Shown here in pieces: positions 3,934-64,000 of a DNA stretch of 64,000 nt (the first letter of the stretch is position 1; the number at the start of each line of letters is the position of its first letter). Below the pieces are notes generated by a model that ran no database searches, was not told the origin of the DNA, and saw only the letters and a program-made list of their open reading frames with translations. Source of the stretch: an uncultured Selenomonadales bacterium (GTDB taxonomy: Bacteria; Bacillota; Negativicutes; Selenomonadales; Selenomonadaceae); contig CAMJMR010000001.1 of the NCBI GenBank assembly GCA_946407095.1, forward strand, positions 32,632 to 96,631, read 5' to 3'. The position numbers were made by a program, and so were the translations under genes.

Positions 3934-3976
3934 TTGATAATCACTTCCTGACTAACTGAAATGTTGACGTTACGAA

Positions 3977-4068
3977 GCTAGCAATGCGCAGCGTTGCGTA
4001 TGGACGCGGTGACCAACTTTGAACAGAATAACGTTGGAGCGCGACCGCAGGATGCAACGTCACGTTGC
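3977..4068 (+). repeat. Family-1 palindrome-ended element, copy 1 (subtype a)
   Basis: GCTAGCAATGCGCAGCGTTGCGTATGGACGCGG...GGATGCAACGTCACGTTGC. It aligns with the copies at 31436, 31610 and 46380, and overlaps the last codons of rplE. Confidence 0.8.
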
Positions 4069-14524: not shown

Positions 14525-15040
<516 letters not shown>

Positions 15041-28700: not shown

Positions 28701-31383
28701 AAATTTTTCGCTTAAGGCCGGCGAACGCTTTCGATTGCAGGACGGCGAACGGCTCGCGCTGATTGAGTCGGGCAAGGTCGAAGTCTACGTCGTCACTCGC
28801 GCCGAGGGTTCCTTCCGTCAGCAATTCTTGGTTGAGTTGACGGCGGGGGAGGCGGCTTTCCCGTCGCTTGACGAATTTGAGCAGACCGAAACGCTGATTT
28901 ACGCCGCCGAAGACTCGCAAATAAAAATCCTCACGTTCGACGAAGCAGAGCCCGCCGCGTTGAAAAATTTCATGCGCAACTGGTTCGCCGAGCTGATTAA
29001 GTTGCCGTGGCTGCGCCTGCTTGCCGACAAGGGCGACGACGTTCTAATCACGTGGCTGGACGGCACGGTTCTGGAGGGCGCGGACGATTTGACCGACGCC
29101 TTCCGCGAAAACGAAGAAATTTTTTCAATGCTGTTGGGCGTGCGCTTCCAAGCGGAGGATAAGCGTTTCTCTCAACGCGTCGAAGTCCGCACGCGCAATC
29201 AGCGGCGACTGCTTGACAACTCGATAGCAAACCTCCTCGGCGAAGAAACGACCCAATACAGCGAAACGACCGAACGCGCCGAACTTTTGGAGGAGGCGTC
29301 TTTTATCGTGCGGCGGGCTGCCGTTGCGCTGAACATGCCGACCGACAACATCAAACTCGACCCCGAAATCGTTCGCAAGCTCGACCAAATCAGATTGATT
29401 CGGCGGCTCGTTCAAAAGGGCAACATGCAGATGCGCCTTATCGAACTCGTCGAAGACTGGCATAAAAACGACAGCGGCGTCATAATCGGCTACTACGGCG
29501 AACGAAAGACCCTTGCCGTCTTCGTGCCGACCGCGCCCGACAAATACAAGCTAATCACCAAGGACAAGCCCGAAGGCATCCCGATAACCGACGACGTTGC
29601 CGCGCAGATTGACAGGAGTGCCTTTGAATGCTACGGCGGCTTCCCTGCGCGGGAACTGGGCATTCTCGACCTGATGAAGTTCATTTTCAAGCAGTGCTGG
29701 ATTTCCGACTACAAAACCGTCATCGTTATCAGCCTCGTATCGGGTTTGATTCCGTTGGCAATGCCGCTGGTGACGGAAACGATTTTCGCCGACATAATCC
29801 CGATTCTCGACCGTCAAGGGCTCGCGACCGTCACGCAGGTCATCATGGTCACAAGCTTCACGACGGCGTCATTGGGCATCGTCCGCACGATAGCCGTCAT
29901 GCGAATCACAACGCGCATGAACATGGCGACGGAGGCGGCTCTTTGGGGACGACTGCTCACCTTGCCGACGAAATTTTTCCGCCGGTTCACCTCCGGCGAA
30001 TTGGCAAGCCGCATGAACGGTATCAGCGTCATCAAAGGGCTCGTCAGCGCAGATTTTATCGGCGGGCTGTTCGGCTTCGTCTTCAGCTTCTGGAGCATCT
30101 TTTTGATGTGCTACTACAGCCTCAAGCTCACTGCGGTGGCGGTGGTTATCTGGTTCGTCTACGCGATTGTCACGGCGTTCATCTATCGGCGCGTCATAAA
30201 CTTTCAGCGCAGCCTTATCGCCGCCAACAACAAGGAGGCGGGCATTGTCCAACAGATTTTCAAAGGGCTTGCCAAGTTCCGCGAACACGGCGCGGAGAAT
30301 CAAGCTTACTGGTTGTGGAGCGGCGTCTTCGGCGAAACGTGGAAATGGAACTTGAAACTGCGCTGGCAAAGCAACTACAACATGATTATCGGCAGCGTTC
30401 AGCCGTTTATCTTGACGATGGCACTTTACTATATCGCGGTCTACGGCATTAACGAGGTCGGCCCCAACGGGCAAATGGTTCAAGGCATAACCTACGCGCA
30501 GTTCATTGCGTTCCAAGGAGCCTTCTCAAGCTTCAACGCCACGCTGAACGGGATTGTTCCGCTTGTCGGTCAATACTTCGCGATTCAGCCGCACATTGAA
30601 AACTTGCGCCCGATACTCAAGGAAGTGCCCGAAAGCGTCGGCGAAAAGGCGGACGCGGGCATTTTGAGTGGCGCGATTGAACTCAACGGCGTGACGTTCG
30701 CCTACAACGAGGGGCATGACGTTTTGCACGAAGTCAGCTTCAAGATAGCGGCGGGCGAGAACGTTGCGATAGTCGGGCGGTCGGGTTGCGGCAAGTCGAC
30801 GCTTGTAAGGTTGCTTTTGGGTTTCGAGACGCCGCGCAAGGGCTCAATCTACTTCGACGGTCAAGACTTGGCTGAACTCAACTTGCCGAGCGTCAGAACT
30901 CAAATGGGCGTCGTGTTGCAAAACGGTCAGCTCATGCAAGGCGACATCTTCACGAACATAATCGGCACCAACGCCTTGACGCAGGAGGACGCATGGCAGG
31001 CGGCCGAGGCGGCGGGCATTGCGGCTGATATCGCGATGATGCCCATGGGTATGCAAACCGTCATCAGCGAGGGCTCAACCAATATCAGCGGCGGACAACG
31101 GCAAAGGATTTTGATAGCCCGCGCCCTGGTTACCAAACCGTCAATCCTAATCTTCGACGAGGCGACCAGCGCGCTTGACAACCGAACTCAAGCCATCGTC
31201 ACAAAGAGCCTGGACAGCCTCAACGCCACGCGAATAATCGTTGCCCACCGCTTGTCGACGATTCGCAACTGCGACAGGATTTTGGTCATGGACGCGGGCA
31301 GGATTGTCGAGAACGGCACCTTCGACGATTTGGTTGCGCAAGGCGGGATTTTTGCTAACTTGGTCAAACGTCAGACGGCTTAA
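28684..31383 (+). CDS. Bacteriocin export ABC transporter, permease/ATPase subunit with an N-terminal cNMP-binding-like domain
   Basis: About 900 aa, with Walker A GRSGCGKST and signature ISGGQRQRILIARAL. The GTG at 28684 is preceded by AGGAGA. The track ORF begins at TTG 28663. Confidence 0.88.
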   Translation: MTRLSKNFSLKAGERFRLQDGERLALIESGKVEVYVVTRAEGSFRQQFLVELTAGEAAFPSLDEFEQTETLIYAAEDSQIKILTFDEAEPAALKNFMRNWFAELIKLPWLRLLADKGDDVLITWLDGTVLEGADDLTDAFRENEEIFSMLLGVRFQAEDKRFSQRVEVRTRNQRRLLDNSIANLLGEETTQYSETTERAELLEEASFIVRRAAVALNMPTDNIKLDPEIVRKLDQIRLIRRLVQKGNMQMRLIELVEDWHKNDSGVIIGYYGERKTLAVFVPTAPDKYKLITKDKPEGIPITDDVAAQIDRSAFECYGGFPARELGILDLMKFIFKQCWISDYKTVIVISLVSGLIPLAMPLVTETIFADIIPILDRQGLATVTQVIMVTSFTTASLGIVRTIAVMRITTRMNMATEAALWGRLLTLPTKFFRRFTSGELASRMNGISVIKGLVSADFIGGLFGFVFSFWSIFLMCYYSLKLTAVAVVIWFVYAIVTAFIYRRVINFQRSLIAANNKEAGIVQQIFKGLAKFREHGAENQAYWLWSGVFGETWKWNLKLRWQSNYNMIIGSVQPFILTMALYYIAVYGINEVGPNGQMVQGITYAQFIAFQGAFSSFNATLNGIVPLVGQYFAIQPHIENLRPILKEVPESVGEKADAGILSGAIELNGVTFAYNEGHDVLHEVSFKIAAGENVAIVGRSGCGKSTLVRLLLGFETPRKGSIYFDGQDLAELNLPSVRTQMGVVLQNGQLMQGDIFTNIIGTNALTQEDAWQAAEAAGIAADIAMMPMGMQTVISEGSTNISGGQRQRILIARALVTKPSILIFDEATSALDNRTQAIVTKSLDSLNATRIIVAHRLSTIRNCDRILVMDAGRIVENGTFDDLVAQGGIFANLVKRQTA

Positions 31384-31435
31384 GGGGGATTTGGCATGAA
31401 GAATTTTTTGACGACCTTAAGCGCGGCGATTGAGT

Positions 31436-31528
31436 GGGCTAGCAATGCGCAGCGTTGCGTTTTGACGCGGCGAATACGTTTGAATCATGAGCGACACGGC
31501 GCGCTATCCGGATGCAACGTCACGTTGC
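31436..31528 (+). repeat. Family-1 element, copy 2 (subtype a)
   Basis: GGGCTAGCAATGCGCAGCGTTGCGTTTTGACGCGGCGAATACGTTTGAATCATGAGCGACACGGCGCGCTATCCGGATGCAACGTCACGTTGC. Confidence 0.85.
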
Positions 31529-31609
31529 CGAACTTAGTCAAGCGTCAGACGGCTTAAGGGGGATTTGGCATGAAGAATTTTTTGACGACCTTAAGCGCGG
31601 CGATTGAGT

Positions 31610-31702
31610 GGGCTAGCAATGCGCAGCGTTGCGTTTTGACGCGGCGAATACGTTTGAATCATGAGCGACACGGCGCGCTATCCGGATGCAACGTCACGTT
31701 GC
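31610..31702 (+). repeat. Family-1 element, copy 3 (identical to copy 2)
   Basis: Identical sequence, 174 nt downstream of copy 2. Confidence 0.85.
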
Positions 31703-31744
31703 CGAACTTAGTCAAGCGTCAGACGGCTTAAGGAGTGATTCGTT

Positions 31745-33250
31745 ATGAAAAAATTTTTGGCGGCTTTAGCGACAGCGGCGTTACTTTTTCCGAACACGAC
31801 TCAAGCCGCCGAAGGCGTGAGTTTGACGCTTGACGACGCGATTGAACTTGCGCTGAAGAACAACCGCCTAATCGAGCAGTCGACGGCGGACAGGGAGGCA
31901 GCCAAGTGGAATTTGTCAGCCGTGCGCCGCAATGCGGGTCCCATACTCAGCTGGTCTTCGTCGTTAAACCATATCGGCGGCAGATTTTATCGCAGAAACT
32001 ATCGCAACATCAGGGACGATGTCAAAGCGCGAAATGCGGAGTACAGAGCGACTTACGGCTACGAGCCCTACAACATGAATCTTTACCCGAATTACAATTA
32101 CGAAGGCACGCACAGCTTGACGTTGCGAATGCCGGTGTACACGGGCGGGCGTCTTGAGAATCAGCGGGAGTCAGCGCGCTACACTCTGAACGCTGCCGAT
32201 TTGACGCTTGAAAATTCTCGTCAGCAAGTCAAGTACCAAGCGGCGGCGGCTTACTATCGCGTCCTTCAGCAAGAAAGTTTGGTCGGCGTGCAGGAGCAGG
32301 CGGTTCGGCTTTTGCAAGAGCACTTGCGCATGGTTTCCACCCAATACGAAGTCGGCACCGTCGCCAAGTCGGATGTGCTTGCCACCAACGTTCAGCTTGC
32401 CAACAGCCAACAGAGCTTGACCACCGCGCAGGGCAATTATCAAACCGCCGTCGCGCAACTCAACAACGTTTTGGGTTTGCCCGTCGACACCGAAATTGCC
32501 GCGAGCGATAAGATTAATTTCGTCAAATACGGCTTGAGCGAGGCTGATTGCCTTGACTACGCCTTGAGCCACCGCCCCGACGGAATTGCCGCCGTTTACG
32601 CCGCCAAGCGAGCCGGAGCTGATGTTTCCGCCGCAAAGAGCGGTTTTCGCCCGAATGTTTCGGCTATCGTGCAAGGAATAGCCACGGGCGAAAGTTACTT
32701 CAAAGCAGACCATCGAAGCGAACGTTTGTCGGTCGGCGTCGAGATGACTTGGAATATTTTCGACAACGGCATTACCTCCGCGCAGGTTCAGCAATACAAG
32801 GCCGTCGAGCGCAGAGCCGAGTCGGTCGCCCGCCAACAGATTGAAACGATTCAGCTTGAAGTGCACAGCGCGTATATCGCCTTGAAGACCGCCGAGAAAA
32901 ATATCGAGACGACAGCCGCCGCCGTCGACAAGGCGGAGGAGGAATTCGCCATCGCGCAAGTCCGCTACGTCGAGGGCGTCGACACCAACTTGAACGTCAT
33001 GAACGCGCAGGAAAAGGTCGTCGAGACGCGCAACAACTACTACGCCGCCGTTTACAACTACAACACGAGCCGCGCGCAACTGGAAAAGGCAATGGGCGTT
33101 CCCGTCGCGATTGACGCGTTGCTTTACGCCGAAGCGGAACAGGAAGGCAAATCGTCGCCGAAGTCCTTGGAGGCGGCCGCCGTCAATCAAAATGATTCGT
33201 CGGAGGCTGAAGTCGTCAAAGAATCGCCCGCGCCCTTCGACAAGCAATGA
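31745..33250 (+). CDS. TolC-family outer-membrane efflux protein
   Basis: 501 aa ORF with a signal peptide MKKFLAALATAALLFPNTTQA and two repeated TolC halves (...LTLDDAIELALKNNRLIEQ...). Confidence 0.9.
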   Translation: MKKFLAALATAALLFPNTTQAAEGVSLTLDDAIELALKNNRLIEQSTADREAAKWNLSAVRRNAGPILSWSSSLNHIGGRFYRRNYRNIRDDVKARNAEYRATYGYEPYNMNLYPNYNYEGTHSLTLRMPVYTGGRLENQRESARYTLNAADLTLENSRQQVKYQAAAAYYRVLQQESLVGVQEQAVRLLQEHLRMVSTQYEVGTVAKSDVLATNVQLANSQQSLTTAQGNYQTAVAQLNNVLGLPVDTEIAASDKINFVKYGLSEADCLDYALSHRPDGIAAVYAAKRAGADVSAAKSGFRPNVSAIVQGIATGESYFKADHRSERLSVGVEMTWNIFDNGITSAQVQQYKAVERRAESVARQQIETIQLEVHSAYIALKTAEKNIETTAAAVDKAEEEFAIAQVRYVEGVDTNLNVMNAQEKVVETRNNYYAAVYNYNTSRAQLEKAMGVPVAIDALLYAEAEQEGKSSPKSLEAAAVNQNDSSEAEVVKESPAPFDKQ

Positions 33251-42505: not shown

Positions 42506-43270
42506 ATGAGGAGCACAGAGACAAAACGCCGCATCCTCAAAGAGGCGAAGCTCGCCTTCGACGCGCTGATGAAATGCTATCCGTTCACGACGGACGACAT
42601 CGAAGGGGAAGAATGGCGCGACTACCCCAACTACGGCAACGGGGACTACCAAATCTCCACTTTCGCGCGCATTAAGTCTTTGAAAAACGGTCGCGTCAAA
42701 ATTTTGAAACCCTGGTTTAGCGGGGAATACATGCAAATCGAACTTTGCCAAGACGGCGTTCAAAAGACGTTCCAAGTCCATCGCCTCGTCGCCGAAACTT
42801 TCATCCCCAATTCCGATAACCTGCCTGAGGTGAATCATCGCGACGGGCGGAAGTACAACAACCACGTGTCAAATCTGGAATGGGTGACCCACGCCCAGAA
42901 CATGCGCCACGCCGTTGATACGGGTTTGCAAATTGGCTTGAGTGGCGAAGACAATCCGCGAGCTAAACTCATCGGTGAACAGATTGTTTACATTCGCGAG
43001 AATCCCGACGGCTTGACAGGCAAAGAATTGGCAGAAATGTTTGGCGTGTCTGAAATTGCGGTCAGTGATATTCAAACTGGTAAAACCTACAAAAATGTGG
43101 GCGGCAAAATTCGCGAGACAAAACGGAAACGCACCCCCGACGAGATTCGCGCCAAAATCCGCGCAGAGTACAGAAAGGGCGTCCCCGGTTGCGGCTTGCA
43201 GGCTCTTGCTAAAAAGTACAAGCTCAATCCAACGACAATACGCGACATAGTCAACAAGGACGAAGACTGA
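42506..43270 (+). CDS. Free-standing HNH homing-endonuclease-like protein (NUMOD4 + HNH_3 + C-terminal HTH repeats)
   Basis: 254 aa ORF ...EEWRDYPNYGNGDYQISTFARIKSL...VHRLVAETFIPNSDNLPEVNHRDGRKYNNHVSNLEWVTHAQN... Confidence 0.85.
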   Translation: MRSTETKRRILKEAKLAFDALMKCYPFTTDDIEGEEWRDYPNYGNGDYQISTFARIKSLKNGRVKILKPWFSGEYMQIELCQDGVQKTFQVHRLVAETFIPNSDNLPEVNHRDGRKYNNHVSNLEWVTHAQNMRHAVDTGLQIGLSGEDNPRAKLIGEQIVYIRENPDGLTGKELAEMFGVSEIAVSDIQTGKTYKNVGGKIRETKRKRTPDEIRAKIRAEYRKGVPGCGLQALAKKYKLNPTTIRDIVNKDED

Positions 43271-44228: not shown

Positions 44229-44287
44229 ATAATCGCAATGGTGGCGGGCGCGTCCCTTCAATTCGTCATTCGATTAAATTTATTTTT

Positions 44288-44461
44288 TAAATCTACTTTC
44301 TTTGTGCGGACAAAGAAAGTAGCAAAGAAAACCGCCGCTACGCGCGGGGCGAAGGGTCGTTACCCGCGCCGCCCGATATTTTCAGCGTGCTTGCGCCGAC
44401 GGTATTTGCGTCACGCAAATGCGTCGGCGACGGCCGCCCATCCTTGGGCGGCCTCTTTTTT
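44288..44461 (+). repeat. Family-2 structured element, short form (copy c), ending in a canonical terminator; candidate ncRNA
   Basis: P1 TACTTTCTTTGTGCGGACAAAGAAAGTA, a TCAC-loop hairpin ATTTGCGTCACGCAAAT, and a terminal hairpin GGCCGCCCATCCTTGGGCGGCC followed by TCTTTTTT. Confidence 0.75.
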
Positions 44462-45687: not shown

Positions 45688-46371
45688 TTGCTTGACGAAA
45701 AAAAAGTTGCGTTCATAACGTGCGTGAACAGCGATTGGTGGTACAGCGAGTGCCGCCTTTACCTGGAGCACTTGACGATACCCGACGGCATGACGGCCGA
45801 GTTTATCGACGTGCGCGACGCAAAATCCATGACGGCGGGCTACAACCGCGCAATGAAAAATTCCGACGCCAAGTACAAAATTTATCTGCACCAAGACACT
45901 TTCGTCGTCAACAAGAATCTTATCGCCGACTTGCTGAAAATTTTTCGCGACGAGACAATCGGTGTCGTGGGAGTGATTGGTTGCATGAACTTGCCCGCGA
46001 CGGGCGTTTGGTGGGACGGCTTGAGGACTTACGGGCGCGTGCTTCATGCTTGCGAGCCCGAAAGTGTCGTCGATTCGCATTGCGACGAACCCGAAGGCGA
46101 TTATCAGGAAGTCGAATCGGTTGACGGTTTATTTTTGGCGACGCAGTACGATTTGCCGTGGCGCGAAGATTTGTTCGACGGTTGGCATCTTTACGACACA
46201 TCGCTCTGCAAGGAAATGAGCCGAGCCGGTTATCGGGTTGTCGTGCCGAATCAGTCGGCGGATTTTTGGTGCATACACTGCCCGAAGGAAAAACCGCTTG
46301 ACCCGCGCTATCGCCGCTACCAAAAAATTTTCCTTGCCGAATACGGCGACGAACTTAATCCCGAAGTTTAA
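45688..46371 (+). CDS. Glycosyltransferase-like protein (GT2-like fold)
   Basis: 227 aa ORF ...VAFITCVNSDWWYSECRLYLEHL...YNRAMKNSDAKYKIYLHQD...VDGLFLATQ... Confidence 0.7.
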   Translation: MLDEKKVAFITCVNSDWWYSECRLYLEHLTIPDGMTAEFIDVRDAKSMTAGYNRAMKNSDAKYKIYLHQDTFVVNKNLIADLLKIFRDETIGVVGVIGCMNLPATGVWWDGLRTYGRVLHACEPESVVDSHCDEPEGDYQEVESVDGLFLATQYDLPWREDLFDGWHLYDTSLCKEMSRAGYRVVVPNQSADFWCIHCPKEKPLDPRYRRYQKIFLAEYGDELNPEV

Positions 46372-46379
46372 AAGTTGGT

Positions 46380-46473
46380 GGGCTAGAAATGCGCATGCAT
46401 TTCGTATCGGCGCGGCGATACCGTTTGAATTACGGAAGCTAAGGCGCGCTATCAGGATGCAACGTCACGTTGC
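46380..46473 (+). repeat. Family-1 element, copy 4 (subtype a, diverged 5' arm)
   Basis: GGGCTAGAAATGCGCATGCATTTCGTATCGGCGCGGCGATACCGTTTGAATTACGG...GCGCGCTATCAGGATGCAACGTCACGTTGC. Confidence 0.8.
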
Positions 46474-46568
46474 CGCCGCTACCAAAAAATTTTCCTTGCC
46501 GAATACGGCGACGAACTCAATCCGGAGGTGTAAAGTGGAAGACATCAAACCGAGCTTGAGCCGCTTTA

Positions 46569-46663
46569 AAAGCGGCGAAACATATAACGCGTTTAAGCGT
46601 CCGGTAACTTCAGCCAGTCGCCGCGCATAAAATTTATCAACGAACTTTATTGGGAGGTTTGAC
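46569..46663 (-). repeat. Family-1 element, copy 5 (subtype b, diverged or truncated)
   Basis: The plus strand reads CCGCTTTAAAAGCGGCGAAACA...GTCGCCGCGCATAAAAT.... It aligns with 59846 and 63517. Confidence 0.6.
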
Positions 46664-47548
46664 GTGGAAGACATTAAACCGAGCTTGACCGAATTCATTT
46701 ACGGCGAAGATTTTTGGCAAAGAATTTTGGTCGTCGAGAGCGCAGATTATCTTGCCGAGTTGCGCGAGCGGTTCCCGACGGATGAAATTTTTTTTGTCAC
46801 TACGAACGAGGATTTTCATTCCGACGGCGTGAAAACTTTCGTGCTTGACTATCGCGAGGAGCGACTGCCCTTCGACGAAGAATTTTTCGACGCGATTATC
46901 GGAGACTTGACGCTTGAGGTCGTGACTAACCCGCAAGACATAGCGGCGGGCTTTTCGACGTTCATTAAGCAGACGGGCTGTTGGCTGACGAGTTTCCGCA
47001 ACCTTCGCCATTGGAAGGTCATCGAAAAGCTGATGCGCGGCGTTTCGGGAGGAATAGTTTCGCGGCTGTACACGCGCACCGAATTCGAGCGGTTGCTTTA
47101 CGCGTCGTTCTATAAGGAAGTGCAACTGTTGCCGCTGAAAAAAAACGCGCCGCCCGAACTTTTGGCGCGGCTTATCGATTGCGGCTTCGACAACTTCGAC
47201 GACGACTTGCAGACAGAATTTTGGCTGGTAAGAGCGGCGCGCTCAATGCCGGAACTTGCGCTGTTGAAGTCAATGTTCACGCCCGACATCCGCGCAGAGC
47301 TGTCGCGCCTCCTTCACCGCATCGAATACGACGTTGCAACCGAGGACAGCGTTCAAAAGTTTTGGCGGCTATTCGACGCACAGGGTCTTTTCACGGACTA
47401 CGCGGCGGCGTTCATTCGGTCGGTCGTCGTGCACCGCGAACATTTTTGGCGCAACATGAAAATTTTTTCCGCCCGCGCAGAGCTTGACGCGATAATCGAC
47501 GAGGCGGAATCAATGTACGACTTCGATACGGGTAATCGTCTGCTGTGA
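46664..47548 (+). CDS. Hypothetical protein (weak class-I methyltransferase-like features)
   Basis: 294 aa ORF from GTG 46664, preceded by GGGAGG. No strong motif recognised. Confidence 0.6.
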   Translation: MEDIKPSLTEFIYGEDFWQRILVVESADYLAELRERFPTDEIFFVTTNEDFHSDGVKTFVLDYREERLPFDEEFFDAIIGDLTLEVVTNPQDIAAGFSTFIKQTGCWLTSFRNLRHWKVIEKLMRGVSGGIVSRLYTRTEFERLLYASFYKEVQLLPLKKNAPPELLARLIDCGFDNFDDDLQTEFWLVRAARSMPELALLKSMFTPDIRAELSRLLHRIEYDVATEDSVQKFWRLFDAQGLFTDYAAAFIRSVVVHREHFWRNMKIFSARAELDAIIDEAESMYDFDTGNRLL

Positions 47549-53085: not shown

Positions 53086-53324
53086 GCCCTTTCGTTTGCT
53101 AAGCAAAAGGGCTCAAAGACAGCTTTTGATTTTAAATCTACTTTCTTTCACTGGCGAAAGAAAGTAGCAAAGAAAGCCACCACTGCGCGTGGGGCGGATA
53201 CCGACCACCGCCGCAACGTTCGCGTCCCAGTCAGCCACTCGTGCCGCTGTCGACGCATCACGCGTCGAAGTCGCGGCGGGCGCGCGTCCATGCGCGCCCT
53301 CATTCTCTGCAACTCATTCGTTGC
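53086..53324 (+). repeat. Family-2 structured element, intermediate form (copy d); candidate ncRNA
   Basis: Carries the 5' hairpin CCCTTTCGTTTGCTAAGCAAAAGGG. The core is identical to copy b. The terminal hairpin GGGCGCGCGTCCATGCGCGCCC differs from copy b by compensatory changes. Confidence 0.8.
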
Positions 53325-55966: not shown

Positions 55967-56156
55967 CTCAATCGCTCCTTTGATTTTGGTCGACGGAAAA
56001 TTTCTACAGGCGGCGGCGTTTTTCCTGCAGAGGGCTTGCGGTTGAAATTGCGCTGGCATTGAACTATAATCAATCGGATTATCTAGGGGCAGTTGGTAAC
56101 GTCAAACAGTGACGGTTCTTTTTTCGCCTGACGAAAGTTGTCGCGCGCTCGCCGGT

Positions 56157-56250
56157 CGCTTTAAAAGCGACGGAACAGCAAGGGCGCGGCGATTCCCTTA
56201 AGTCATCGACGAGTTTCAACGCGCTATCTGGGTCAAGCTTCAAGCTTGCG
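56157..56250 (+). repeat. Family-1-related element, copy 6 (mosaic: subtype-b hairpin at the 5' end, subtype-a-like hairpin at the 3' end)
   Basis: GTCGCTTTAAAAGCGACGGAACAGCAAGGGCGCGGCGA...GCGCTATCTGGGTCAAGCTTCAAGCTTGC. The 3' hairpin covaries with GCAACGTCACGTTGC. Confidence 0.6.
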
Positions 56251-56328
56251 CCTCGTCATACGAAAAAATTCCTCGTCACATCCCGATTTTGAATTACCAA
56301 CACACCCTAAGCAAGGAGGATTCTTTCA

Positions 56329-56778: not shown

Positions 56779-58944
56779 ATGTTTAGAAAATTTTTTAAGG
56801 CATTGAGCGGGAAGAAAGAATCGCGCCGACAGCGACAGGAAACCGACATTGAGCGCGAAATTTCCGCGATTTACGCCATCCTCGTCGAAGTCATGGGCTC
56901 CGACAGATTGGTTTTGCAGGCGGGCAAGATGGACGCCCTCCGCTACATGCGCTCGAATGACCCCGCCGAACGCGTCCTTGCCCTGCGCAGAATCCTTGAG
57001 GAAAATCCTACGCTCGCGCCGCCGCCCAAGCCCAACGAACTTAAAGAACAAGTCATGGCTCTTTCGGAGCTGATAGCCGACATCATGGCGCGTCGACAGG
57101 TTGAAGACAAAATTGAACGCAAGATTAACGAGAAGCTTGAAAAGGAACATCAAGACTACGTCAAGGATATTCGTATGCAAGTTTTGCGCGAAGAGAACAA
57201 TTCCGAATCGCCGCACGACCAAAAGAAGCGCGAAGACCTTCAAGCCCTCGAAGACATTCACTTGACGCAATCGGTTATGGAATTGCTTAGGCCGAAGACG
57301 CTTGAAGAAATCGTCGGGCAGGGACGCGCCGTCAAGTCGTTGCGCTCAAAGCTTGCGTCGCCCTACCCGCAACATCTGATTTTGTACGGCCCGCCGGGCG
57401 TCGGCAAAACCACGGCGGCGCGGCTGATATTGGAGGCGGTGCGCGGCACAGAACTAAGTCCCTTCGGCGAAAATGCGCCCTTCGTGGAAACGGACGGCAC
57501 GACCCTCCGCTGGGACCCGCGTGACGTGACGAATCCGCTTTTGGGCTCGGTGCACGATCCGATTTATCAGGGCGCGCAACGTCAGCTTGCCGACAGCGGC
57601 GTCCCCGAACCGAAACCCGGTCTTGTCACGGACGCGCACGGCGGCATCCTGTTCATCGACGAAATCGGCGAAATGGATATCATGTTGCAGAACAAGCTGC
57701 TGAAAGTCTTGGAGGACAAGCGAGTTTTCTTCGAGTCGAGCTACTACGACCCTGCCGACGAAAAAGTTCCGCCTTACGTCAAAATGCTGTTCGAGAACGG
57801 TGCGCCCGCCGACTTCGTGCTTATCGGTGCCACGACCCGCGAACCTTCCGCGCTCAATCCCGCATTGCGTTCGCGTTGTGCAGAAATTTACTTCGAGCCG
57901 TTGACGCCCGCTCATATCGTCGAAATCGTCAACAACGCCGCGCAGAAGCTCAACGTCGAGCTTGAGGACGGGCTTGCCGAAACAATCAGCGAATACACGA
58001 TTGAAGGGCGCAAGGCGATTAACATTCTTGCCGACGCCTACAGCTTGGCTCTTGACCGCGCCGAGGAAAAAGTTTTGCACATCGACCGCCCCGTCAAAAT
58101 CGAAATGCGCGACGTGTACGAAGTGGCGCAAGTTAGCCGGCTTTATCAATACGTCACGCGCAAGGCGTCGAGCAAGGCGGCAGTCGGGCACATCTTCGGG
58201 CTGGGCGTCAGCGGCTTTATCGGCTCCGTCATCGAGATTGAGGCTGTCGTCTTCGCGGCGGAAAAGGGCAAGGGCACGATTCGCTTCAACGAGACGGCGG
58301 GCTCCATGGCGAAGGATTCGGTCTTCAATGCGGCGAGCGTCCTGCGCGGCGTGACGGGCAAAGACATTCACGACTTCGACGTGCACATAAACGTTATCGG
58401 CGGCGGCAACATCGACGGACCGAGCGCGGGCACGGCGATTTTGGCGGCGTTGGTCAGTGCAGTCACGGGCAAGCGCATTCGGCAAGACGTGGCTGTTACG
58501 GGCGAAATTTCCTTGCAGGGCAAAGTTCGGCCTGTCGGCGGCGTCTTCGAGAAGGCTTACGGCGCAAAGCAGGCGGGCATTAAGACGTTGGTTATCCCGA
58601 AGGAAAACGCCAAAGACATTCCGAAAGGACACTTGGGCTTGAAGATATTCGCAGTCGAGACGGCGGAGGAGGCTTTCAAAAAAATTTTCGCGGACGCGGT
58701 TGAATTCGTCGGCAAGCAAACGGTTTCGTTGGACAAAGACGAACAAACAGCTTTGACACCCACGCCATCGTCGAAAGACGAACAGATAAAAAAAAGCAAC
58801 GTGACGTTGCACCCAGATAGCGCGCTGAAAGATTGCGCCGACATTGATTCGACCCCCGCGTCGTCGTCGAAAGACGAACAGATAAAAAAAATTTCCTCAA
58901 CGACTGTGACGTCGGAGGAATTGGAAATGCTTACGAGCGATTGA
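56779..58944 (+). CDS. Lon-family ATP-dependent protease (LonC/LonB-like) with a repeat-derived C-terminal tail
   Basis: 721 aa ORF with Walker A GPPGVGKTT and a Lon protease Ser motif DGPSAGTAILAALVS. The tail after about residue 650 contains duplicated SSKDEQIKK and an embedded family-1 fragment. Confidence 0.88.
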   Translation: MFRKFFKALSGKKESRRQRQETDIEREISAIYAILVEVMGSDRLVLQAGKMDALRYMRSNDPAERVLALRRILEENPTLAPPPKPNELKEQVMALSELIADIMARRQVEDKIERKINEKLEKEHQDYVKDIRMQVLREENNSESPHDQKKREDLQALEDIHLTQSVMELLRPKTLEEIVGQGRAVKSLRSKLASPYPQHLILYGPPGVGKTTAARLILEAVRGTELSPFGENAPFVETDGTTLRWDPRDVTNPLLGSVHDPIYQGAQRQLADSGVPEPKPGLVTDAHGGILFIDEIGEMDIMLQNKLLKVLEDKRVFFESSYYDPADEKVPPYVKMLFENGAPADFVLIGATTREPSALNPALRSRCAEIYFEPLTPAHIVEIVNNAAQKLNVELEDGLAETISEYTIEGRKAINILADAYSLALDRAEEKVLHIDRPVKIEMRDVYEVAQVSRLYQYVTRKASSKAAVGHIFGLGVSGFIGSVIEIEAVVFAAEKGKGTIRFNETAGSMAKDSVFNAASVLRGVTGKDIHDFDVHINVIGGGNIDGPSAGTAILAALVSAVTGKRIRQDVAVTGEISLQGKVRPVGGVFEKAYGAKQAGIKTLVIPKENAKDIPKGHLGLKIFAVETAEEAFKKIFADAVEFVGKQTVSLDKDEQTALTPTPSSKDEQIKKSNVTLHPDSALKDCADIDSTPASSSKDEQIKKISSTTVTSEELEMLTSD
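58796..58860 (-). repeat. Family-1 element fragment, copy 7, inside the Lon-like ORF
   Basis: The plus strand reads GCAACGTGACGTTGCACCCAGATAGCGCGC.... It is flanked by 28-bp direct repeats at 58768-58795 and 58864-58891. Confidence 0.75.
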
Positions 58945-59791: not shown

Positions 59792-59840
59792 CCGTTATTC
59801 TCCGATAAATTTTTCTTGCCGACCTTCGACTCAAGCCGCC

Positions 59841-59943
59841 GCCGCCCGCTTTAAAAGCGGGGGAACAGTTAGCGCGTTGCAACTGACGACAAAGGAAACG
59901 TTATCGCCGCGTTCATACGCAACGCCGGCGCATTGCTAGCCCG
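59841..59943 (-). repeat. Family-1 element, copy 8 (subtype b)
   Basis: The plus strand reads GCCGCCCGCTTTAAAAGCGGGGGAACAGTTAGCGCGTTGCAACTGACG...GCCGCGTTCATACGCAACGCCGGCGCATTGCTAGCCC. Confidence 0.8.
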
Positions 59944-59960
59944 ATAAAATGGTTGGATTC

Positions 59961-62450
59961 TCAATTTTTCTTGCCGACCTTCGACTCAAGCCGCCTACGC
60001 AGTTCGTTATGAAAATCTTCCGCGCCCGCCTTGAATTTGACCTCGACGCAGATGACGTAGACCGGAATGCTCCACGCCTGCCGCGCCACTTCGTCCGGAA
60101 TTTTAACGGCGTCCTTTTCCGTCACAACAATCATTTCCGCCGCGAACGACTCCGCCCGCCGCAAGATGTCTTCCATTTCCGCAACCGTGTAGTCGTGGTG
60201 GTCGGGATAGCGCAGGCTCGAAATTATTTCCGCTCCCAAATCGCTTAGCGTCCTCTCGAACGACGCGGGGTTGCCGATAGCCGAAACCGCCATCACCTTC
60301 CGCCCGCGTAAAATCTCGACGCTGACGCCCTCGCCCGCCAAATCGACCGACCAATCGGCAAGCGGTATCAGGCAGCGCGGCTCGTGTATGCTCTCGACAA
60401 TCTGCGCGGCGGCATTGTACTTTTGAACGGTCTCGCGAATCAGCTCGCAAGAACCCTCGCGGGCTTGGTCAACCTTCGTCATGAGGCAAACATCTGCGCG
60501 GCTGATATGGGAAATGGATTCGCGCAACGTGCCGCGCGGCAAAAGGTGCCCGTTCCCGAAGACGGACACCGCGTCAATCAGCAGAATGTCGAAGTCGCGA
60601 ATGATTTGCCAATGTTGAAAGCCGTCGTCAAGAATCACGACCTCCGCGCCGAAATTTTCAATGGCGTATTGCCCCGTGACGGCTCGCCGCGCTCCGATTA
60701 GCACAGGGACATTCGGCAGGTGCTTGGCAAGCATGTAGGCTTCGTCGCCCGCCTCCGTCGCGTCCATTTTGAGCGTCTTGCCGTCGCTTACGATGCCGAC
60801 TTCGCCGTAAAATTTCGCCCGGTAGCCGCGATTGAGAATCACGACGCGATAGCCCATGTCGCGAATTTCCTTCGCCAGCCGTTGAGCCGTAGGCGTTTTG
60901 CCCGTCCCGCCGACCGTTATGTTGCCCAGGCTTATGACGAAACATTTCAGCCGCTCCTTGCCCGAAAAGCCCAAATCGTAGCCGAGTAGCCGCAGATTGA
61001 CCAGCCCTTTGTAGACCAGCGAGGCAAGATACATGACGAAAATCATCAGCGGCGTGAAGGCTCCGCGAACTTCTTCGTCGTGAATCAGCTTGAGGAAATA
61101 CGTTTGAACGTTTTCAATTTTCTCTGTCGTGCGGAGGCGGCGGGCGTTTTCCTTGGCCTCGTATTCGGTGAGCATTTGCCTTAGCAGGACGGCCGACTTG
61201 CGCGACGCGCCGCGATTCTCATGGACAATCTTAATCGTCTCTTCCTCAAGGCGTTGGCGTTCGGCGGGTTCGTCGAAAAGTTTCTTCGCCTGCGCGGCAA
61301 GTTCGTCAGCGTCCTTGACCGTGACGCAAGCGTTGCGATTCTTGAACAGCGCGTGCAAGTCTTTAAAATTTTCCATGTGGTGCCCGACGATAATCGCCTT
61401 GCCGTGCGCCGCCGGCTCAAGGATATTGTGGCCGCCGTGAGAAACCAGACTGCCGCCGACGTAAATCACGTTGCCGACGCTGTAGACTTGACCGAGTTCG
61501 CCGATAGTGTCGAGGATGATTATGTCTTCGCCCTTGGGCGGACGCTTTTGGAGTTCGGTGCGCGTGCCGACGGTGAAGCCTGCCGCCTTGCACAGCGCGA
61601 CGACTTCACGGGTGCGCAAAAGTTCGCGCGGGGCAATGACGAGCCGAGCCTTGGGATGATCTTCGCGAATAGCCTTGAACGCCTTGAGCACGAAATTTTC
61701 TTCGCCGCGATGCGTGCTGCCCGCCAAAAAAATTTCCGTGGCGTCCGTCAAGCCCATGTCCGACAAAATCTTGGCGCGTTGAGCGTCCGTGACATCGGTG
61801 TAGGTTTGGTCGAATTTCGTATTGCCCGTGACGATGACGAGGTCTTCAGGCGCACCGAGCTGCTTGACGTAGCCCGCGTCGACACTTGACGCCATAGCGA
61901 ACAGCTTGACCGTGCCGATCATATCGCGCAGGATTGAGAACATGTACTTGTAACGCTTGACGCTCTTTTCGGAAATGCGCCCGTTGACCATCATGACGGG
62001 CACTTGATGTTCGCGCGCCGCTTTGAGGAAGTTCGGCCACAGCTCCGTTTCGACGTTCAGAAAGACGCGCGGGAAAATTTTTTTGAAGACCGACTCCGAA
62101 ACGAACGGCAAATCCAGCGGGAAGTAGATTATGCTGTCCGCGTCTTTGATGATTCGGTTCGCCATTTCGTAGCCTGAAGTCGTCACGACCGACACGAGGA
62201 TTGGCGATTTGGGGAATTCGCGGCGGAACTCTTTAATCAGCGGGCTTGTGGCGACGATTTCTCCGACCGACGCCGCGTGCACCCATATGCAATTTTTTTT
62301 CGCCACGGGGTCCAGTGCGCCCTTCGGGAAGAAGCCGAAGCTTTGACGGATTCGCTCCACGAAGCCGCGCTCCCGTATCGAACGAATCATGAACACCGGG
62401 ATAATCAGTATCACGACGAGTATCGCCGCCAAGTTGTAAAGTAATTGCAA
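59961..62450 (-). CDS. Bifunctional fusion: Kdo transferase (WaaA/KdtA) plus tetraacyldisaccharide 4'-kinase (LpxK)
   Basis: 829 aa ORF. The N-terminal half has WVHAASVGE and GT30 features. The C-terminal half has VISLGNITVGGTGKTP (LpxK P-loop). Confidence 0.88.
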   Translation of the reverse strand: MQLLYNLAAILVVILIIPVFMIRSIRERGFVERIRQSFGFFPKGALDPVAKKNCIWVHAASVGEIVATSPLIKEFRREFPKSPILVSVVTTSGYEMANRIIKDADSIIYFPLDLPFVSESVFKKIFPRVFLNVETELWPNFLKAAREHQVPVMMVNGRISEKSVKRYKYMFSILRDMIGTVKLFAMASSVDAGYVKQLGAPEDLVIVTGNTKFDQTYTDVTDAQRAKILSDMGLTDATEIFLAGSTHRGEENFVLKAFKAIREDHPKARLVIAPRELLRTREVVALCKAAGFTVGTRTELQKRPPKGEDIIILDTIGELGQVYSVGNVIYVGGSLVSHGGHNILEPAAHGKAIIVGHHMENFKDLHALFKNRNACVTVKDADELAAQAKKLFDEPAERQRLEEETIKIVHENRGASRKSAVLLRQMLTEYEAKENARRLRTTEKIENVQTYFLKLIHDEEVRGAFTPLMIFVMYLASLVYKGLVNLRLLGYDLGFSGKERLKCFVISLGNITVGGTGKTPTAQRLAKEIRDMGYRVVILNRGYRAKFYGEVGIVSDGKTLKMDATEAGDEAYMLAKHLPNVPVLIGARRAVTGQYAIENFGAEVVILDDGFQHWQIIRDFDILLIDAVSVFGNGHLLPRGTLRESISHISRADVCLMTKVDQAREGSCELIRETVQKYNAAAQIVESIHEPRCLIPLADWSVDLAGEGVSVEILRGRKVMAVSAIGNPASFERTLSDLGAEIISSLRYPDHHDYTVAEMEDILRRAESFAAEMIVVTEKDAVKIPDEVARQAWSIPVYVICVEVKFKAGAEDFHNELRRRLESKVGKKN

Positions 62451-63324: not shown

Positions 63325-63515
63325 GAGCCCGCACCTCCCACAAAAAATTTTGTCGATTATAACACAGCGCACAAAAAAAATCTGCCGCTTGTAAGTGACA
63401 GATTAAATTTTTTAAAATTACGAAGTGCTCTTTAGCATTTATCAAAAACGATTCGTAACTTTAGGAGAATGGAAGATGAACTTATCGGCTGAAAACATTT
63501 CGGTGACGCTCGGCG

Positions 63516-63597
63516 CCCGCTTTAAAAGCGGGGGAACAGCGGACGCGCCTCAACGTTTCACTGCTTAAAGTTGGTCGCCCGCGTCCATACGCATTGC
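63516..63597 (-). repeat. Family-1 element, copy 9 (subtype b)
   Basis: The plus strand reads CCCGCTTTAAAAGCGGGGGAACAGCGGACGCGCC...GTCGCCCGCGTCCATACGCATTGC. It is flanked by direct repeats of about 65 bp. Confidence 0.8.
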
Positions 63598-63623
63598 TTC
63601 GTAACTTTAGGAGGGATTGAAAG

Positions 63624-64000
63624 ATGAACTTATCGGCTGAAAATATTTCGGTGACGCTCGGCGGCAAAGAGATTTTGCGCGATTTGAATTACGAATTCCC
63701 TTCGGGCAAGCGCACGGCGATAATCGGCGCGAACGGCGCGGGCAAGTCCACTTTGCTGAAGGTGCTTTGCCTGCTCAACGAAAATTTTTCGGGACGCGTG
63801 ACGCTCGACGGGCAAGACATTCGCGCACTCGGCAGAAAAAATTTGGCAAAGGTAATGGCAATCTTGCCGCAAGAACGCGACGCGCCGCAAGATACGACCG
63901 TCAAGCAGTTGGTTTCATTTGGACGCTTTCCGCACAGAAAATTTTTCAGCGGCACCTCGAAGGAGGACGACGCGGCTGTTCAAAACGCCTTGGCACTCAC
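63624..64000 (+). CDS. ABC transporter ATP-binding protein (iron-siderophore/cobalamin FecE/FepC-like), 5' part
   Basis: MNLSAENISVTLGGKEILRDLNYEFPSGKRTAIIGANGAGKSTLLK.... Runs off the window end. Confidence 0.85.
   Translation, partial: MNLSAENISVTLGGKEILRDLNYEFPSGKRTAIIGANGAGKSTLLKVLCLLNENFSGRVTLDGQDIRALGRKNLAKVMAILPQERDAPQDTTVKQLVSFGRFPHRKFFSGTSKEDDAAVQNALAL

What the first reader, a model, noticed from the sequence alone, without database searches (positions are those of the whole stretch)
46312..46690. Two adjacent family-1 insertions flanked by duplicated gene termini whose copies differ only at synonymous sites
Seen directly. The local structure is:
- GT-like gene 3' end (46312-46371, RRYQKIFLAEYGDELNPEV*);
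- element copy 4;
- a second copy of the same 60 nt (46474-46541);
- a decoy copy of the next gene's start (GTG GAA GAC ATC AAA CCG AGC TTG A, 46543-46567);
- element copy 5;
- the real start (46664, GTG GAA GAC ATT AAA CCG AGC TTG A).

The two 60-nt copies differ at 4 positions: CTT/CTC, CCC/CCG, GAA/GAG and GTT/GTG. All are third-position synonymous changes. The start copies differ by ATC/ATT, also synonymous.

Together with the loci at 31357 (2 differences) and 63476 (1 difference), that gives 8 of 8 differences synonymous within unambiguous duplicated coding sequence. Non-coding parts of the same duplications carry indels.

Inference. Random drift of a dead copy would give mostly non-synonymous changes. 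The second copies therefore look like sequence that evolved as coding DNA, for example an allele from a diverged strain. Candidate explanations:
- recombination through the element between alleles carrying it at slightly different positions;
- Campbell-like integration of a small element-plus-homology molecule;
- frequent excision through the direct repeats, which would keep both copies under selection;
- a strain-chimeric assembly joined through the repeat.
Basis: partly seen in the sequence, partly recalled or inferred. Interest (0 to 1): 0.85.

Follow-up and report, generated by a model that had tools for sequence, protein, structure and literature searches.

The report
Hairpin-ended mobile elements duplicating gene ends
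Two copies of a small, previously undescribed hairpin-ended mobile DNA element sit between two genes of a rumen bacterium; each insertion duplicated 49-61 bases of the target, so both genes kept an intact end, and the same hairpin marks similar elements in several bacterial phyla and their viruses.

Summary
The structure is real. Corrected coordinates:
- live glycosyltransferase (GT) 3' end: 46312-46372
- element E4: 46373-46473 (+)
- dead copy of the GT end: 46474-46534
- dead start of the next gene: 46535-46559
- element E5: 46560-46639 (-)
- second copy of the junction: 46640-46688, with the live start at 46664

Seven related metagenome contigs carry the uninterrupted junction, so these are insertions with 61- and 49-nt target duplications.

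The elements are non-coding and 50-120 nt long. They have variable 5' ends and a constant 3' palindrome (GCAACGTCACGTTGC or CCGCTTTTAAAGCGG).

The exact 19-mer GGRTGCAACGTCACGTTGC occurs in more than 118 loci of Selenomonadales, Clostridia, Fusobacteriota, Verrucomicrobiota and Planctomycetota, and in 46 viral contigs. In 32 of 125 genomic hits, a 22-95-nt repeat of upstream sequence starts right at the hairpin end.

"Only synonymous" is partly true. At 46312, at least two of the four changes lie in the live copy. Segments released from function do carry non-synonymous changes. At 31357 the two copies match different natural alleles, and divergence jumps across the element, which points to recombination.

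A 33-nt duplication that is absent from a strain 96.8% identical has identical copies, so copies start out identical. The enzyme is unknown. No matching family was found.

The parts
45688..46371 (+). Glycosyltransferase gene (Pfam Glyco_tranf_2_5); its last 60 nt plus stop lie in the duplicated segment
46312..46372 (+). F1: live 3' end of the glycosyltransferase gene. This is the target-duplication copy that abuts the 5' end of element E4. It carries CTT, CCC, GAA and GTT; the embedded GGAGG is lost.
46373..46473 (+). Element E4 (101 nt): 5' hairpin GAAATGC-GCAT-GCATTTC, CGCG...CGCG core, terminal palindrome GCAACGTCACGTTGC at 46459-46473
46474..46534 (+). F2: dead copy of the gene's 3' end. 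It starts directly at the E4 hairpin end and keeps the CCGGAGGTG found in all orthologues.
46511..46559 (+). X1: hairpin-side copy of the 49-nt target duplication of E5. It overlaps the last 24 nt of F2 and holds the dead start GTGGAAGACATCAAACCGAGCTTGA (46535-46559). That start opens a 31-codon ORF ending at 46630.
46560..46639 (-). Element E5 (80 nt, inverted, lacks the 5' hairpin): terminal palindrome GCCGCTTTTAAAGCGGC at its 3' end, which is the left end in window coordinates
46640..46688 (+). X2: copy of the 49-nt duplication abutting the 5' end of E5. The first 24 nt are a decayed remnant of the glycosyltransferase end that keeps GGGAGG. The live GTG start of the next gene is at 46664.
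46664..47548 (+). Downstream gene (294 aa, no Pfam family). In orthologues its start directly follows or overlaps the glycosyltransferase stop.
31357..31767 (+). Sister locus: [79-nt junction copy][95-nt element] x2, then the live junction. The tandem unit is 174 nt (58 codons). Each unit is a 53-codon relay ORF (31396-31557, 31570-31731) that ends 12-13 nt before the next start.
59808..59995 (-). Sister locus: element E7 (59841-59962) between identical 33-nt copies (59808-59840, 59963-59995). It is absent from strain L188. It makes a new TGA that shortens KdtA-LpxK by 5 aa.
63456..63663 (-). Sister locus: element E8 (63516-63601) between 60/62-nt copies of the leader plus the first 13 codons of an ABC ATPase gene
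58752..58891 (-). Sister locus: 52-nt 5'-truncated element (58796-58847) plus a 44-nt duplication. The total of 96 nt is in frame inside a + strand gene.
3964..4068 (+). Family copy with no detectable flanking repeat, in an intergenic position
56152..56262 (-). Family copy with no detectable flanking repeat, upstream of rplI (approximate ends)

Best explanation
**What it is.** E4 and E5 are two independent insertions of a non-autonomous mobile element. The element's one constant feature is a 3'-terminal palindromic hairpin preceded by AAYT. The element's 3' end always joins the target exactly at the hairpin end, usually before a pyrimidine. The 5' end is variable or truncated.

**How the duplication arises (inferred).** The two target strands are opened far apart, 6 to about 95 nt, and fill-in duplicates the stretch between the cuts. 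In a compact operon, only insertions whose duplication rebuilds both gene termini survive. That is why the live stop and the live start each keep one complete copy.

**How the copies come to differ.** The copies are identical at birth. Afterwards:
- each segment that still serves a gene accepts only synonymous changes;
- segments released from a function decay or specialise: the ribosome-binding site is lost from the copy that now only encodes the C-terminus, and the coding sequence is lost from the copy that now only serves as leader;
- homologous recombination with element-free or differently arranged alleles, and between the copies, overwrites each side separately up to the element. Dead copies therefore often look like functional alleles.

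**Shown:** the insertions, the duplications, the constant 3' end with a variable 5' end, strain-level polymorphism, and the mosaic pattern.

**Inferred:** the staggered-nick, 3'-anchored copying mechanism and the enzyme behind it. I lean towards a DNA-level, HUH/Rep-like or other hairpin-binding nuclease, because the terminal motif is a perfect palindrome. An RNA/reverse-transcriptase route is not excluded.
For: **Empty sites**
- L119, L120, L121, L122, L124, L129 and L132 have the GT stop and the next start adjacent, with a single copy of the junction.
- L184, L185 and L186 are empty at the 31357 site.
- L188, at 96.8% nt identity, is empty at the 59841 site, and there the two 33-nt copies are identical.

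**Family anatomy**
- Nine copies in the window share the core and one of two palindromes.
- The distance from the repeat end to the hairpin runs from 0 to about 250 nt as a continuum.

**Generality**
- The 19-mer occurs in more than 118 genomic loci across phyla and in 46 viral contigs.
- 32 of 125 genomic hits have a repeat starting at the hairpin end, against 2 in the control.
- In the cultured isolate Propionigenium maris the repeats are only 6-8 nt, T-rich, and sit behind terminators.
- Position +1 is a pyrimidine in 92% of hits, and positions -4 to -1 read AAYT.

**Later evolution of the copies**
- CCC and GAA in F1 are derived and remove GGAGG.
- 46640-46663 decays but keeps GGGAGG.
- Synonymous versus non-synonymous differences are about 28:5.
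- The two copies at 31357 match two natural allele types.
- Identity between the window and L183 is 97.7% upstream and 92.7% downstream of the element.
- The window's live copy shares GCT AAC with L183's dead copy, a mosaic pattern.
- The window and L183 share the 5' junction but hold different elements and different repeat start points. This indicates nested or repeated hits at one hotspot.
Against: - No enzyme was found. No protein family recurs next to the hairpin, and no reverse-transcriptase-like ORF is present in the held loci.
- About three quarters of genomic hits and all 50 viral hits lack a long repeat. Long duplication is therefore not obligatory; it may depend on lineage or on selection.
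- In F2, an island between two elements that recombination can hardly reach, the three sites where it differs from both outer copies (CTC, GTG, ATC) are all third codon positions. Neither drift nor simple refreshment by recombination explains this well.
- The two differences between the tandem units at 31357 fall in the 27 coding nt, with none in the other 147 nt.
- Covariation support for the core fold is weak. The closing stem is invariant.
Confidence: 0.55

Rival explanations
1. Imported flank. The mobile unit is the element plus a piece of its previous host gene, either as a small circle integrating Campbell-style or as a copy that read through into the donor's upstream flank. It enters the homologous gene of another strain by homology, so one copy is foreign from the start.
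For: - At 31357 the copy on the element's 5' side is of the L185 allele type (12-nt spacer, FLTTL). The hairpin-side copy is of the L184/L186 type.
- The dead transporter end carries only synonymous changes, including the two-step TTG>TTA>CTA.
- Tandem [flank+element] arrays occur in the window and in L012, L015, L023, L095 and L101.
Against: - The youngest insertion (E7) has identical copies, and both carry the lineage-specific TCG and GTC.
- F1 and F2 share the lineage-specific CTTGCCGAA, where all orthologues have CTGCGCGAR or a variant.
- The model does not explain how the first copy-element-copy arises at each of dozens of unrelated genes.
- Double-stranded circles of 60-200 bp are physically awkward.
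Confidence: 0.2
2. Both copies are under selection inside the genome. Frequent gene conversion or excision between the copies exposes mutations in the dead copy to selection. Alternatively, the dead termini are translated as short relay ORFs that keep translational coupling across the insertion.
For: - There is a mosaic between the live and dead copies of the window and L183.
- Relay ORFs of 53 codons run from the dead start, through the element, into the dead stop. They end 12-13 nt before the next start, both in the window (31396-31557, 31570-31731) and in L183 with a different element.
Against: - Relay translation would select against stops and frameshifts, not against amino-acid changes.
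- No in-frame ORF crosses E4 into F2; there is a TAG at 46384 and a TGA at 46426 (read directly).
- The dead start at 31531-31609 and the remnant at 46640-46663 do carry non-synonymous changes.
Confidence: 0.12
3. Strain-chimeric assembly. The contig joins two co-occurring strains through the repeated element, so the duplication is not on one molecule.
For: - Nearly all loci with long repeats come from metagenome assemblies.
- Contigs L183 and L185 end inside elements, which shows that the elements disturb assembly.
Against: - The junction from hairpin end to repeat start cannot be produced from two simple alleles unless the element sits at two different, gene-breaking positions, and this would be needed at dozens of loci.
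- An independent assembly (L183, Logan) shares the window's 5' junction.
- Called proteins in other assemblies contain in-frame element plus repeat: P0020 and the L149 terminase.
- A cultured isolate carries the family.
Confidence: 0.03
4. Chance. The duplications are ordinary and the synonymous pattern at this locus is a sampling accident in a few short segments.
For: - There are only 5 differences at this locus, and at least two are in the live copy, where synonymy is forced.
Against: - The ratio of about 28:5 across 12 loci in different genomes is far from the roughly 40% synonymous expected if the dead copy drifts freely (the expectation is my own estimate).
- All polarised changes in the dead copy at 31357 are synonymous.
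Confidence: 0.08

Closest known systems
SINE/LINE-type retroposons (target-primed reverse transcription)
   Same: - A constant 3' end, shared by otherwise unrelated bodies.
- A graded series of 5' truncations.
- Target duplications of variable length.
- An occasional target deletion (window versus L183).
   Different: - No reverse transcriptase was found.
- There is no A-tail.
- The 3' motif is a perfect palindrome, which suggests recognition as DNA.
- The hosts are bacteria and phages, where no such retroposon is known (my own knowledge).
IS1634-group insertion sequences (Mycoplasma)
   Same: They create long direct repeats of variable length at the insertion site. This rests on my own knowledge and on titles and snippets listed.
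   Different: - Those are 1.5-2-kb elements with a DDE transposase gene and terminal inverted repeats.
- Here the elements are 25-120 nt, have no gene, and most copies lack any 5' terminal repeat.
HUH/Rep rolling-circle transposons (IS91, Helitrons, Replitron-1)
   Same: - A hairpin near the 3' end.
- Orientation-specific joining next to a very short target motif.
- Non-autonomous relatives that share only the termini.
- Replitron-1 and some Chlamydomonas Helitrons give variable-length target duplications and fuzzy ends (PMC10288648).
   Different: - Most HUH transposons make no duplication.
- No Rep gene lies next to the elements.
- The only Rep seen is in Microviridae genomes that carry the hairpin, which may be coincidence.
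Prophages e14 and phage 21 in the E. coli icd gene (replacement gene end)
   Same: A duplicated gene 3' end flanks the insert, and the copies differ mainly at synonymous sites. This rests on my own knowledge.
   Different: - Those are 20-40-kb prophages with an integrase, and the substitute end is carried by the phage.
- Here the insert is about 100 nt, hits many genes, and the youngest case has identical copies.
REP/BIME and Rickettsia palindromic elements
   Same: - Short palindromic repeats dispersed at gene ends.
- Some are inserted in frame inside genes (58752-58891, the L149 terminase, P0020).
   Different: - REPs carry a GTAG or CGTC tag, and the survey paper does not mention duplications (PMC3733652).
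- Here the tag is AAYT-GGAT, and repeats of 6-95 nt flank many copies.

Membership tests
MITE derived from a DDE transposon | Terminal inverted repeats at both ends | tested here: not met
   Full-length copies have a second, similar hairpin near the 5' end (GCAATGC-GCA-GCGTTGC). Most copies lack it, and some consist of the 3' hairpin plus 7-15 nt.
MITE derived from a DDE transposon | Target duplication of fixed short length | tested here: not met
   Lengths are 6-8 nt in Propionigenium, 22 to >=95 nt elsewhere, and 33, 44, 49, 60, 61 and 79 nt in the window.
REP/BIME mobilised by RAYT | Unpaired GTAG or CGTC tag beside the palindrome; no target duplication | tested here: not met
   The flank logo is AAYT-GGAT...GC-Y, and repeats are present. 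The defining features come from PMC3733652.
REP/BIME mobilised by RAYT | RAYT (Y1 transposase) gene flanked by the repeats in the same genome | not testable with these tools
   Whole genomes are not held. No recurrent neighbouring protein was found in 118 loci.
IS200/IS605-type palindrome-associated elements | Insertion 3' of a fixed tetra- or pentanucleotide, without duplication | tested here: not met
   Duplications are present, and only position +1 (Y) is biased. A TnpB gene in L191 has no hairpin at its ends.
Integron attC site | R''/L''...L'/R' boxes with GTTRRRY, and a nearby IntI | tested here: not met
   The 3' end reads GTTGCCG/GTTGCY, and the palindrome is only 15-16 nt (read directly). 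No integrase recurs nearby.
Diversity-generating retroelement (TR/VR) | Differences confined to adenines of the template repeat; a reverse transcriptase nearby | tested here: not met
   The differences are T/C, C/G, A/G and T/G at synonymous sites. No RT-like ORF is present.
Non-LTR retroposon (SINE-like) | Constant 3' end, 5' truncation, variable target duplication | tested here: met
Non-LTR retroposon (SINE-like) | RNA intermediate and a partner reverse transcriptase | not testable with these tools
   No RT was found in the held loci. No transcript data are available.
IS1634-group insertion sequences | Long, variable-length direct repeats | tested here: met
IS1634-group insertion sequences | DDE transposase gene between inverted repeats | tested here: not met
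   The elements are non-coding and 25-120 nt long. No autonomous copy was seen in about 180 loci.
HUH rolling-circle transposons | 3' hairpin and a precise end beside a short target motif | tested here: met
HUH rolling-circle transposons | Rep/HUH transposase that recognises the hairpin | tested here: inconclusive
   The only Rep seen is the REP_ORF2-G2P protein of two Microviridae genomes that carry the hairpin. There is none next to chromosomal copies.
Integrative element with a replacement gene end (e14/phage 21 type) | Integrase-encoding element that carries its own copy of the target gene's end | tested here: not met
   There is no gene in the insert. The copies at the youngest insertion are identical and of the host's own allele.
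Any Rfam RNA family | Score at or above the family's gathering threshold | tested here: not met
   There were 0 hits in the whole window, and only chance-level hits at E <= 10 around two copies.

The most novel reading that the evidence does not exclude
The hairpin marks a so far undescribed, cross-phylum class of non-autonomous mobile elements. They integrate by a mechanism anchored at the 3' end with widely staggered cuts: either a bacterial counterpart of target-primed copying or a Rep/HUH-driven route borrowed from single-stranded DNA phages or plasmids. The long duplications let the elements colonise the tightest operon junctions, and even coding sequence, without killing genes. They also create recombination boundaries where alleles of different strains are stitched together.
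Probability: 0.3. Interest if true: 0.9.

Novelty: new variant of a known kind. Interest (0 to 1): 0.72.

Why it matters
- If the family is what it appears to be, small selfish elements can enter overlapping gene junctions, signal peptides and even a phage terminase gene while leaving function intact, because the insertion itself rebuilds what it splits.
- That would change how short duplicated gene fragments, decoy starts and short ORFs in metagenome-assembled genomes should be annotated.
- It gives a ready marker (the 19-mer, or 'DATSRC' when translated in frame) for finding such sites.
- It offers natural pairs of live and released sequence for measuring constraint on embedded ribosome-binding sites.
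- It points to an unidentified hairpin-specific enzyme shared by very different bacteria and their viruses.
- The strain-level presence/absence at 59841 and the rearranged hotspot at 31357 indicate the elements are active now in rumen Selenomonadaceae.

Tried and rejected
- **Rfam.** The search over the window and around two copies found no family.
- **Window's own proteins.** An exact look-up of the window's own downstream protein found nothing on record.
- **Neighbouring proteins.** Clustering all ORFs within 2.5 kb of 130 hairpins gave only housekeeping families and three serine recombinases, with no consistent partner.
- **Autonomous copy.** All-against-all DNA comparison of 5-kb contexts gave only orthologous or near-identical contigs.
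- **Reverse transcriptase.** A Y[AVIM]DD motif scan gave nothing convincing.
- **HNH gene.** The HNH/NUMOD4 gene at 42506-43270 has no relative near other hairpins.
- **TnpB.** The TnpB gene in L191 has no hairpin at its ends.
- **Plasmids.** The collection holds nothing similar to the element.
- **Literature.**
  - Seven full-text searches found no description of the palindrome or of such elements.
  - They returned Replitron-1, read.
  - They also listed papers on IS1634, which I did not open.
- **Core fold.** The consensus fold is uninformative: invariant stems and no compensatory pairs. Support for structure rests only on the swap between the two palindromes and on variants of the 5' hairpin, read by eye.
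- **L038/L068 as outgroups.** This failed because each has another element at the other's site. It does show that hotspots are reused.
- **Error-prone 5'-side copy.** I considered that this copy is made by error-prone synthesis and dropped the idea. Differences are not consistently clustered at that end, and the youngest insertion has none.
Full report
**1. The observation**

Reading 46100-46900 and the repeat search confirm the layout. Exact coordinates come:

| Feature | Coordinates |
|---|---|
| F1 | 46312-46372 |
| Element E4 | 46373-46473 |
| F2 | 46474-46534 |
| Dead start GTGGAAGACATCAAACCGAGCTTGA | 46535-46559 |
| Element E5 | 46560-46639 |
| Second junction copy X2 | 46640-46688 |
| Live GTG start | 46664 |

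- F1 and F2 differ at four positions, and both translate to RRYQKIFLAEYGDELNPEV*.
- The start copies differ by ATC/ATT.
It also covers the last 24 nt of the glycosyltransferase (GT) gene: 46511-46534 versus 46640-46663. That stretch has six differences, including AAT/TAT and CCG/TGG.
- The upstream gene is a Glyco_tranf_2_5 glycosyltransferase. The downstream 294-aa protein matches no Pfam family.

**2. One element family**

- Nine copies in the window align: four in + orientation (3964, 31436, 31610, 46373) and five in - orientation (46560, about 56152, 58796, 59841, 63516).
- They share a core, rCGCGG-variable hairpin-GGCGCG. They end in one of two perfect palindromes, GCAACGTCACGTTGC or CC(C)GCTTTTAAAGCGG(G).
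- Full-length copies have an extra 5' hairpin that varies in a compensated way: GCAATGC/GCGTTGC, GAAATGC/GCATTTC, GCAAGCC/GGCTTGC (read).
- A formal consensus fold gave only invariant stems.
- Rfam has no matching family.

**3. These are insertions with target duplication**

A metagenome scan with the downstream protein returned orthologous loci at 62-87% protein identity.

- *The 46312 site.*
  - Seven contigs (L119, L120, L121, L122, L124, L129, L132) have the GT end and the next start as a single uninterrupted junction, for example ...GACGAACTCAATCCGGAGGTGTGACGTGGAAGACATTAAACCGAGCTTGA.
  - In these contigs the ribosome-binding site GGAGG of the downstream gene lies inside the last GT codons.
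- *The 31357 site.* L184, L185 and L186 (TolC protein 82-84% identical) are empty.
- *The 59841 site.*
  - Strain L188 is empty. Its KdtA-LpxK protein is 99% identical, and nucleotide identity is 96.8% on both sides.
  - The window's two 33-nt copies are identical, and both carry the lineage's own TCG and GTC.
  - Duplications are therefore made at insertion and start out identical. This element is polymorphic among close strains.

**4. The phenomenon is general**

I estimate fewer than ten matches by chance in 596 Gb.
- The hosts are Selenomonadales/Quinella, Clostridia (Oscillospiraceae, Christensenellaceae, Ruminococcus), Fusobacteriaceae including the isolate Propionigenium maris, Chthoniobacterales and other Verrucomicrobiota, and Planctomycetota. 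The 19-mer also occurs in 46 IMG/VR contigs.
- The sequence 5' of the hairpin differs between lineages. Only AAYT-hairpin-Y is shared.
- In 32 of 125 genomic hits (26 loci), a repeat of 22 to >=95 nt of upstream sequence begins within 3 nt of the hairpin end. A control segment 300 nt further on gave 2.
- The distance from the upstream repeat copy to the hairpin, which is the element length, forms a continuum from 0 to about 250 nt.
- In Propionigenium the elements follow terminators and have 6-8-nt T-rich repeats.
- None of the 50 viral hits has a long repeat.
- Tandem [repeat+element] arrays occur at 31357 and in L012, L015, L023, L095 and L101.
- Some copies sit in frame inside genes: 58752-58891 here, twice in a terminase gpA gene, and in the signal peptide of a TolC homologue (P0020).

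**5. What the differences between copies mean**

*At 46312.*
- All seven orthologues have CCG GAG at two of the four sites. CCC and GAA in F1 are therefore derived in the live copy, where only synonymous changes can persist.
- Those two changes abolish the GGAGG that F1 no longer needs.
- The other two sites (CTT/CTC, GTT/GTG) are polymorphic among orthologues.
- The remnant at 46640-46663, which now serves only as leader, lost the GT reading frame but kept GGGAGG.
- This looks like a division of labour between the two copies of a formerly overlapping stop/ribosome-binding-site/start region.
- One oddity remains. F2 is an island between two hairpin ends. At CTC, GTG and ATC it differs from both outer copies, and all three are third codon positions.

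*Across 12 loci.* Taking the longest flanking ORF as the gene, I count about 28 synonymous and 5 non-synonymous differences. My own estimate is that about 40% would be synonymous if dead copies drifted freely.

*At 31357 the evidence for allelic origin is direct.*
- The dead transporter end changed only synonymously relative to three outgroups: TTG>TTA in the window or CTA in L183, AAA>AAG, and GCG>GCT.
- The copy on the element's 5' side has the 12-nt spacer and the FLTTL start of the L185-type allele. The hairpin-side copy has the 13-nt spacer and the FLAAL start of the L184/L186 type.
- The window's live copy shares GCT AAC with L183's dead copy.
- Identity between the window and L183 is 97.7% upstream and 92.7% downstream of the element.

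I conclude that homologous recombination with other alleles, and between the copies, acts separately on the two sides of the insertion. Together with forced synonymy in live segments, this produces the pattern. Imported-flank models are less likely, because the youngest insertion has identical, native copies.

**6. A dynamic hotspot**

- L183 (TolC 97% identical) shares the window's left junction but has a different, shorter element with the other palindrome. Its hairpin-side copy is 41 nt longer.
- In the window, the tail of the supposed decoy start (AAGCGCGGCGATTGA) is really the first 15 nt of that older element's core. The 95-nt element sits inside it.
- L038 and L068 each carry an element at the other's site.
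- In L183 and in both window units, the dead start reads in frame through the element into the dead stop (53 codons). It ends 12-13 nt before the next start, the same spacing as the native junction. This may preserve translational coupling.
- No such frame crosses E4.

**7. Mechanism**

- The anatomy is a precise 3' junction, a variable 5' end, duplications from 6 to 95 nt, and one apparent target deletion. It fits copying that is anchored at the element's 3' end, with the two target strands cut independently.
- Known parallels are target-primed reverse transcription, IS1634-type insertion, and HUH/Rep transposons such as Replitron-1 (PMC10288648).
- The perfect palindromy of both terminal variants suggests recognition as DNA.
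- Two Microviridae genomes that encode a Rep protein carry the hairpin at the end of a conserved non-coding block. This is a lead, not evidence.
- No enzyme could be tied to the elements.

**8. Novelty**

- Full-text searches found neither the palindrome nor a description of such elements.
- I file it as a new variant of a known kind (non-autonomous transposable element), with an unresolved mechanism. There is a real chance that it represents a new class.

Noticed in passing
window 42506-43270 (+): A free-standing protein with HNH_3 endonuclease, NUMOD4 and HTH domains (homing-endonuclease-like), directly upstream of aroE. No relative lies near any other hairpin locus held.
   Followed up: partly
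window 33346-33535, 44279-44351, 53124-53313; also L123:1-100 and L134 near 1180-1230: A second repeat family (up to 178 nt, 97% identity between two copies) with its own hairpin CTACTTTCTTT...AAAGAAAGTAG. In two related contigs it sits just upstream of the orthologue of the 294-aa gene.
   Followed up: no
window 12402, 15011-15055, 22330, 35471: Runs of the heptamer CCTAGTT/CCTTGTT at four places.
   Followed up: no
window 58752-58891: A 52-nt 5'-truncated element plus a 44-nt duplication (96 nt) is in frame inside a + strand gene. It is read as ...TPTPSSKDEQIKK-SNVTLHPDSALKDCADID-STPASSSKDEQIKK...
   Followed up: partly
window 31396-31557 and 31570-31731; L183 1309-1470: Short relay ORFs of 53 codons run from a dead start, through the element, into a dead stop. 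They keep the native 12-13-nt stop-to-start spacing up to the live TolC start.
   Followed up: partly
window 59841-59995 versus L188 2850-2890: - The insertion creates a new TGA at its 5' junction and shortens KdtA-LpxK by 5 aa (KKN* instead of KKNLSEGD*).
- The displaced 9 nt that formerly encoded the C-terminus differ at 5 positions from the 96.8%-identical strain.
   Followed up: partly
L149 620-2602 (IMG/VR contig): A phage terminase large subunit (gpA ATPase and nuclease domains) carries two hairpin elements in frame within its coding sequence.
   Followed up: partly
L172 and L175 (IMG/VR, 5.2-5.3 kb): Microviridae genomes (Phage_F capsid, REP_ORF2-G2P Rep) carry the hairpin at the 3' end of a conserved block of about 120 nt of non-coding sequence downstream of the capsid gene.
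   Followed up: partly
protein P0020 (TolC homologue, 73% identity): Its N-terminus reads MKKFLATCAAI-MFKLSQRQTRQQDATSRC-KKFLATCAAILL. This is an in-frame hairpin element (DATSRC) with a duplicated signal-peptide start, in another lineage at the same gene junction.
   Followed up: no
L191 5427-6539: An IS605 OrfB/TnpB gene lies 1.2 kb from the kdtA-lpxK orthologue of a 95%-identical strain. It has no family hairpin at its ends.
   Followed up: partly
L183 3040-3111 and L185 2400-2464: Two short-read contigs end inside a family element, so these repeats break assemblies and will be under-represented in MAGs.
   Followed up: no
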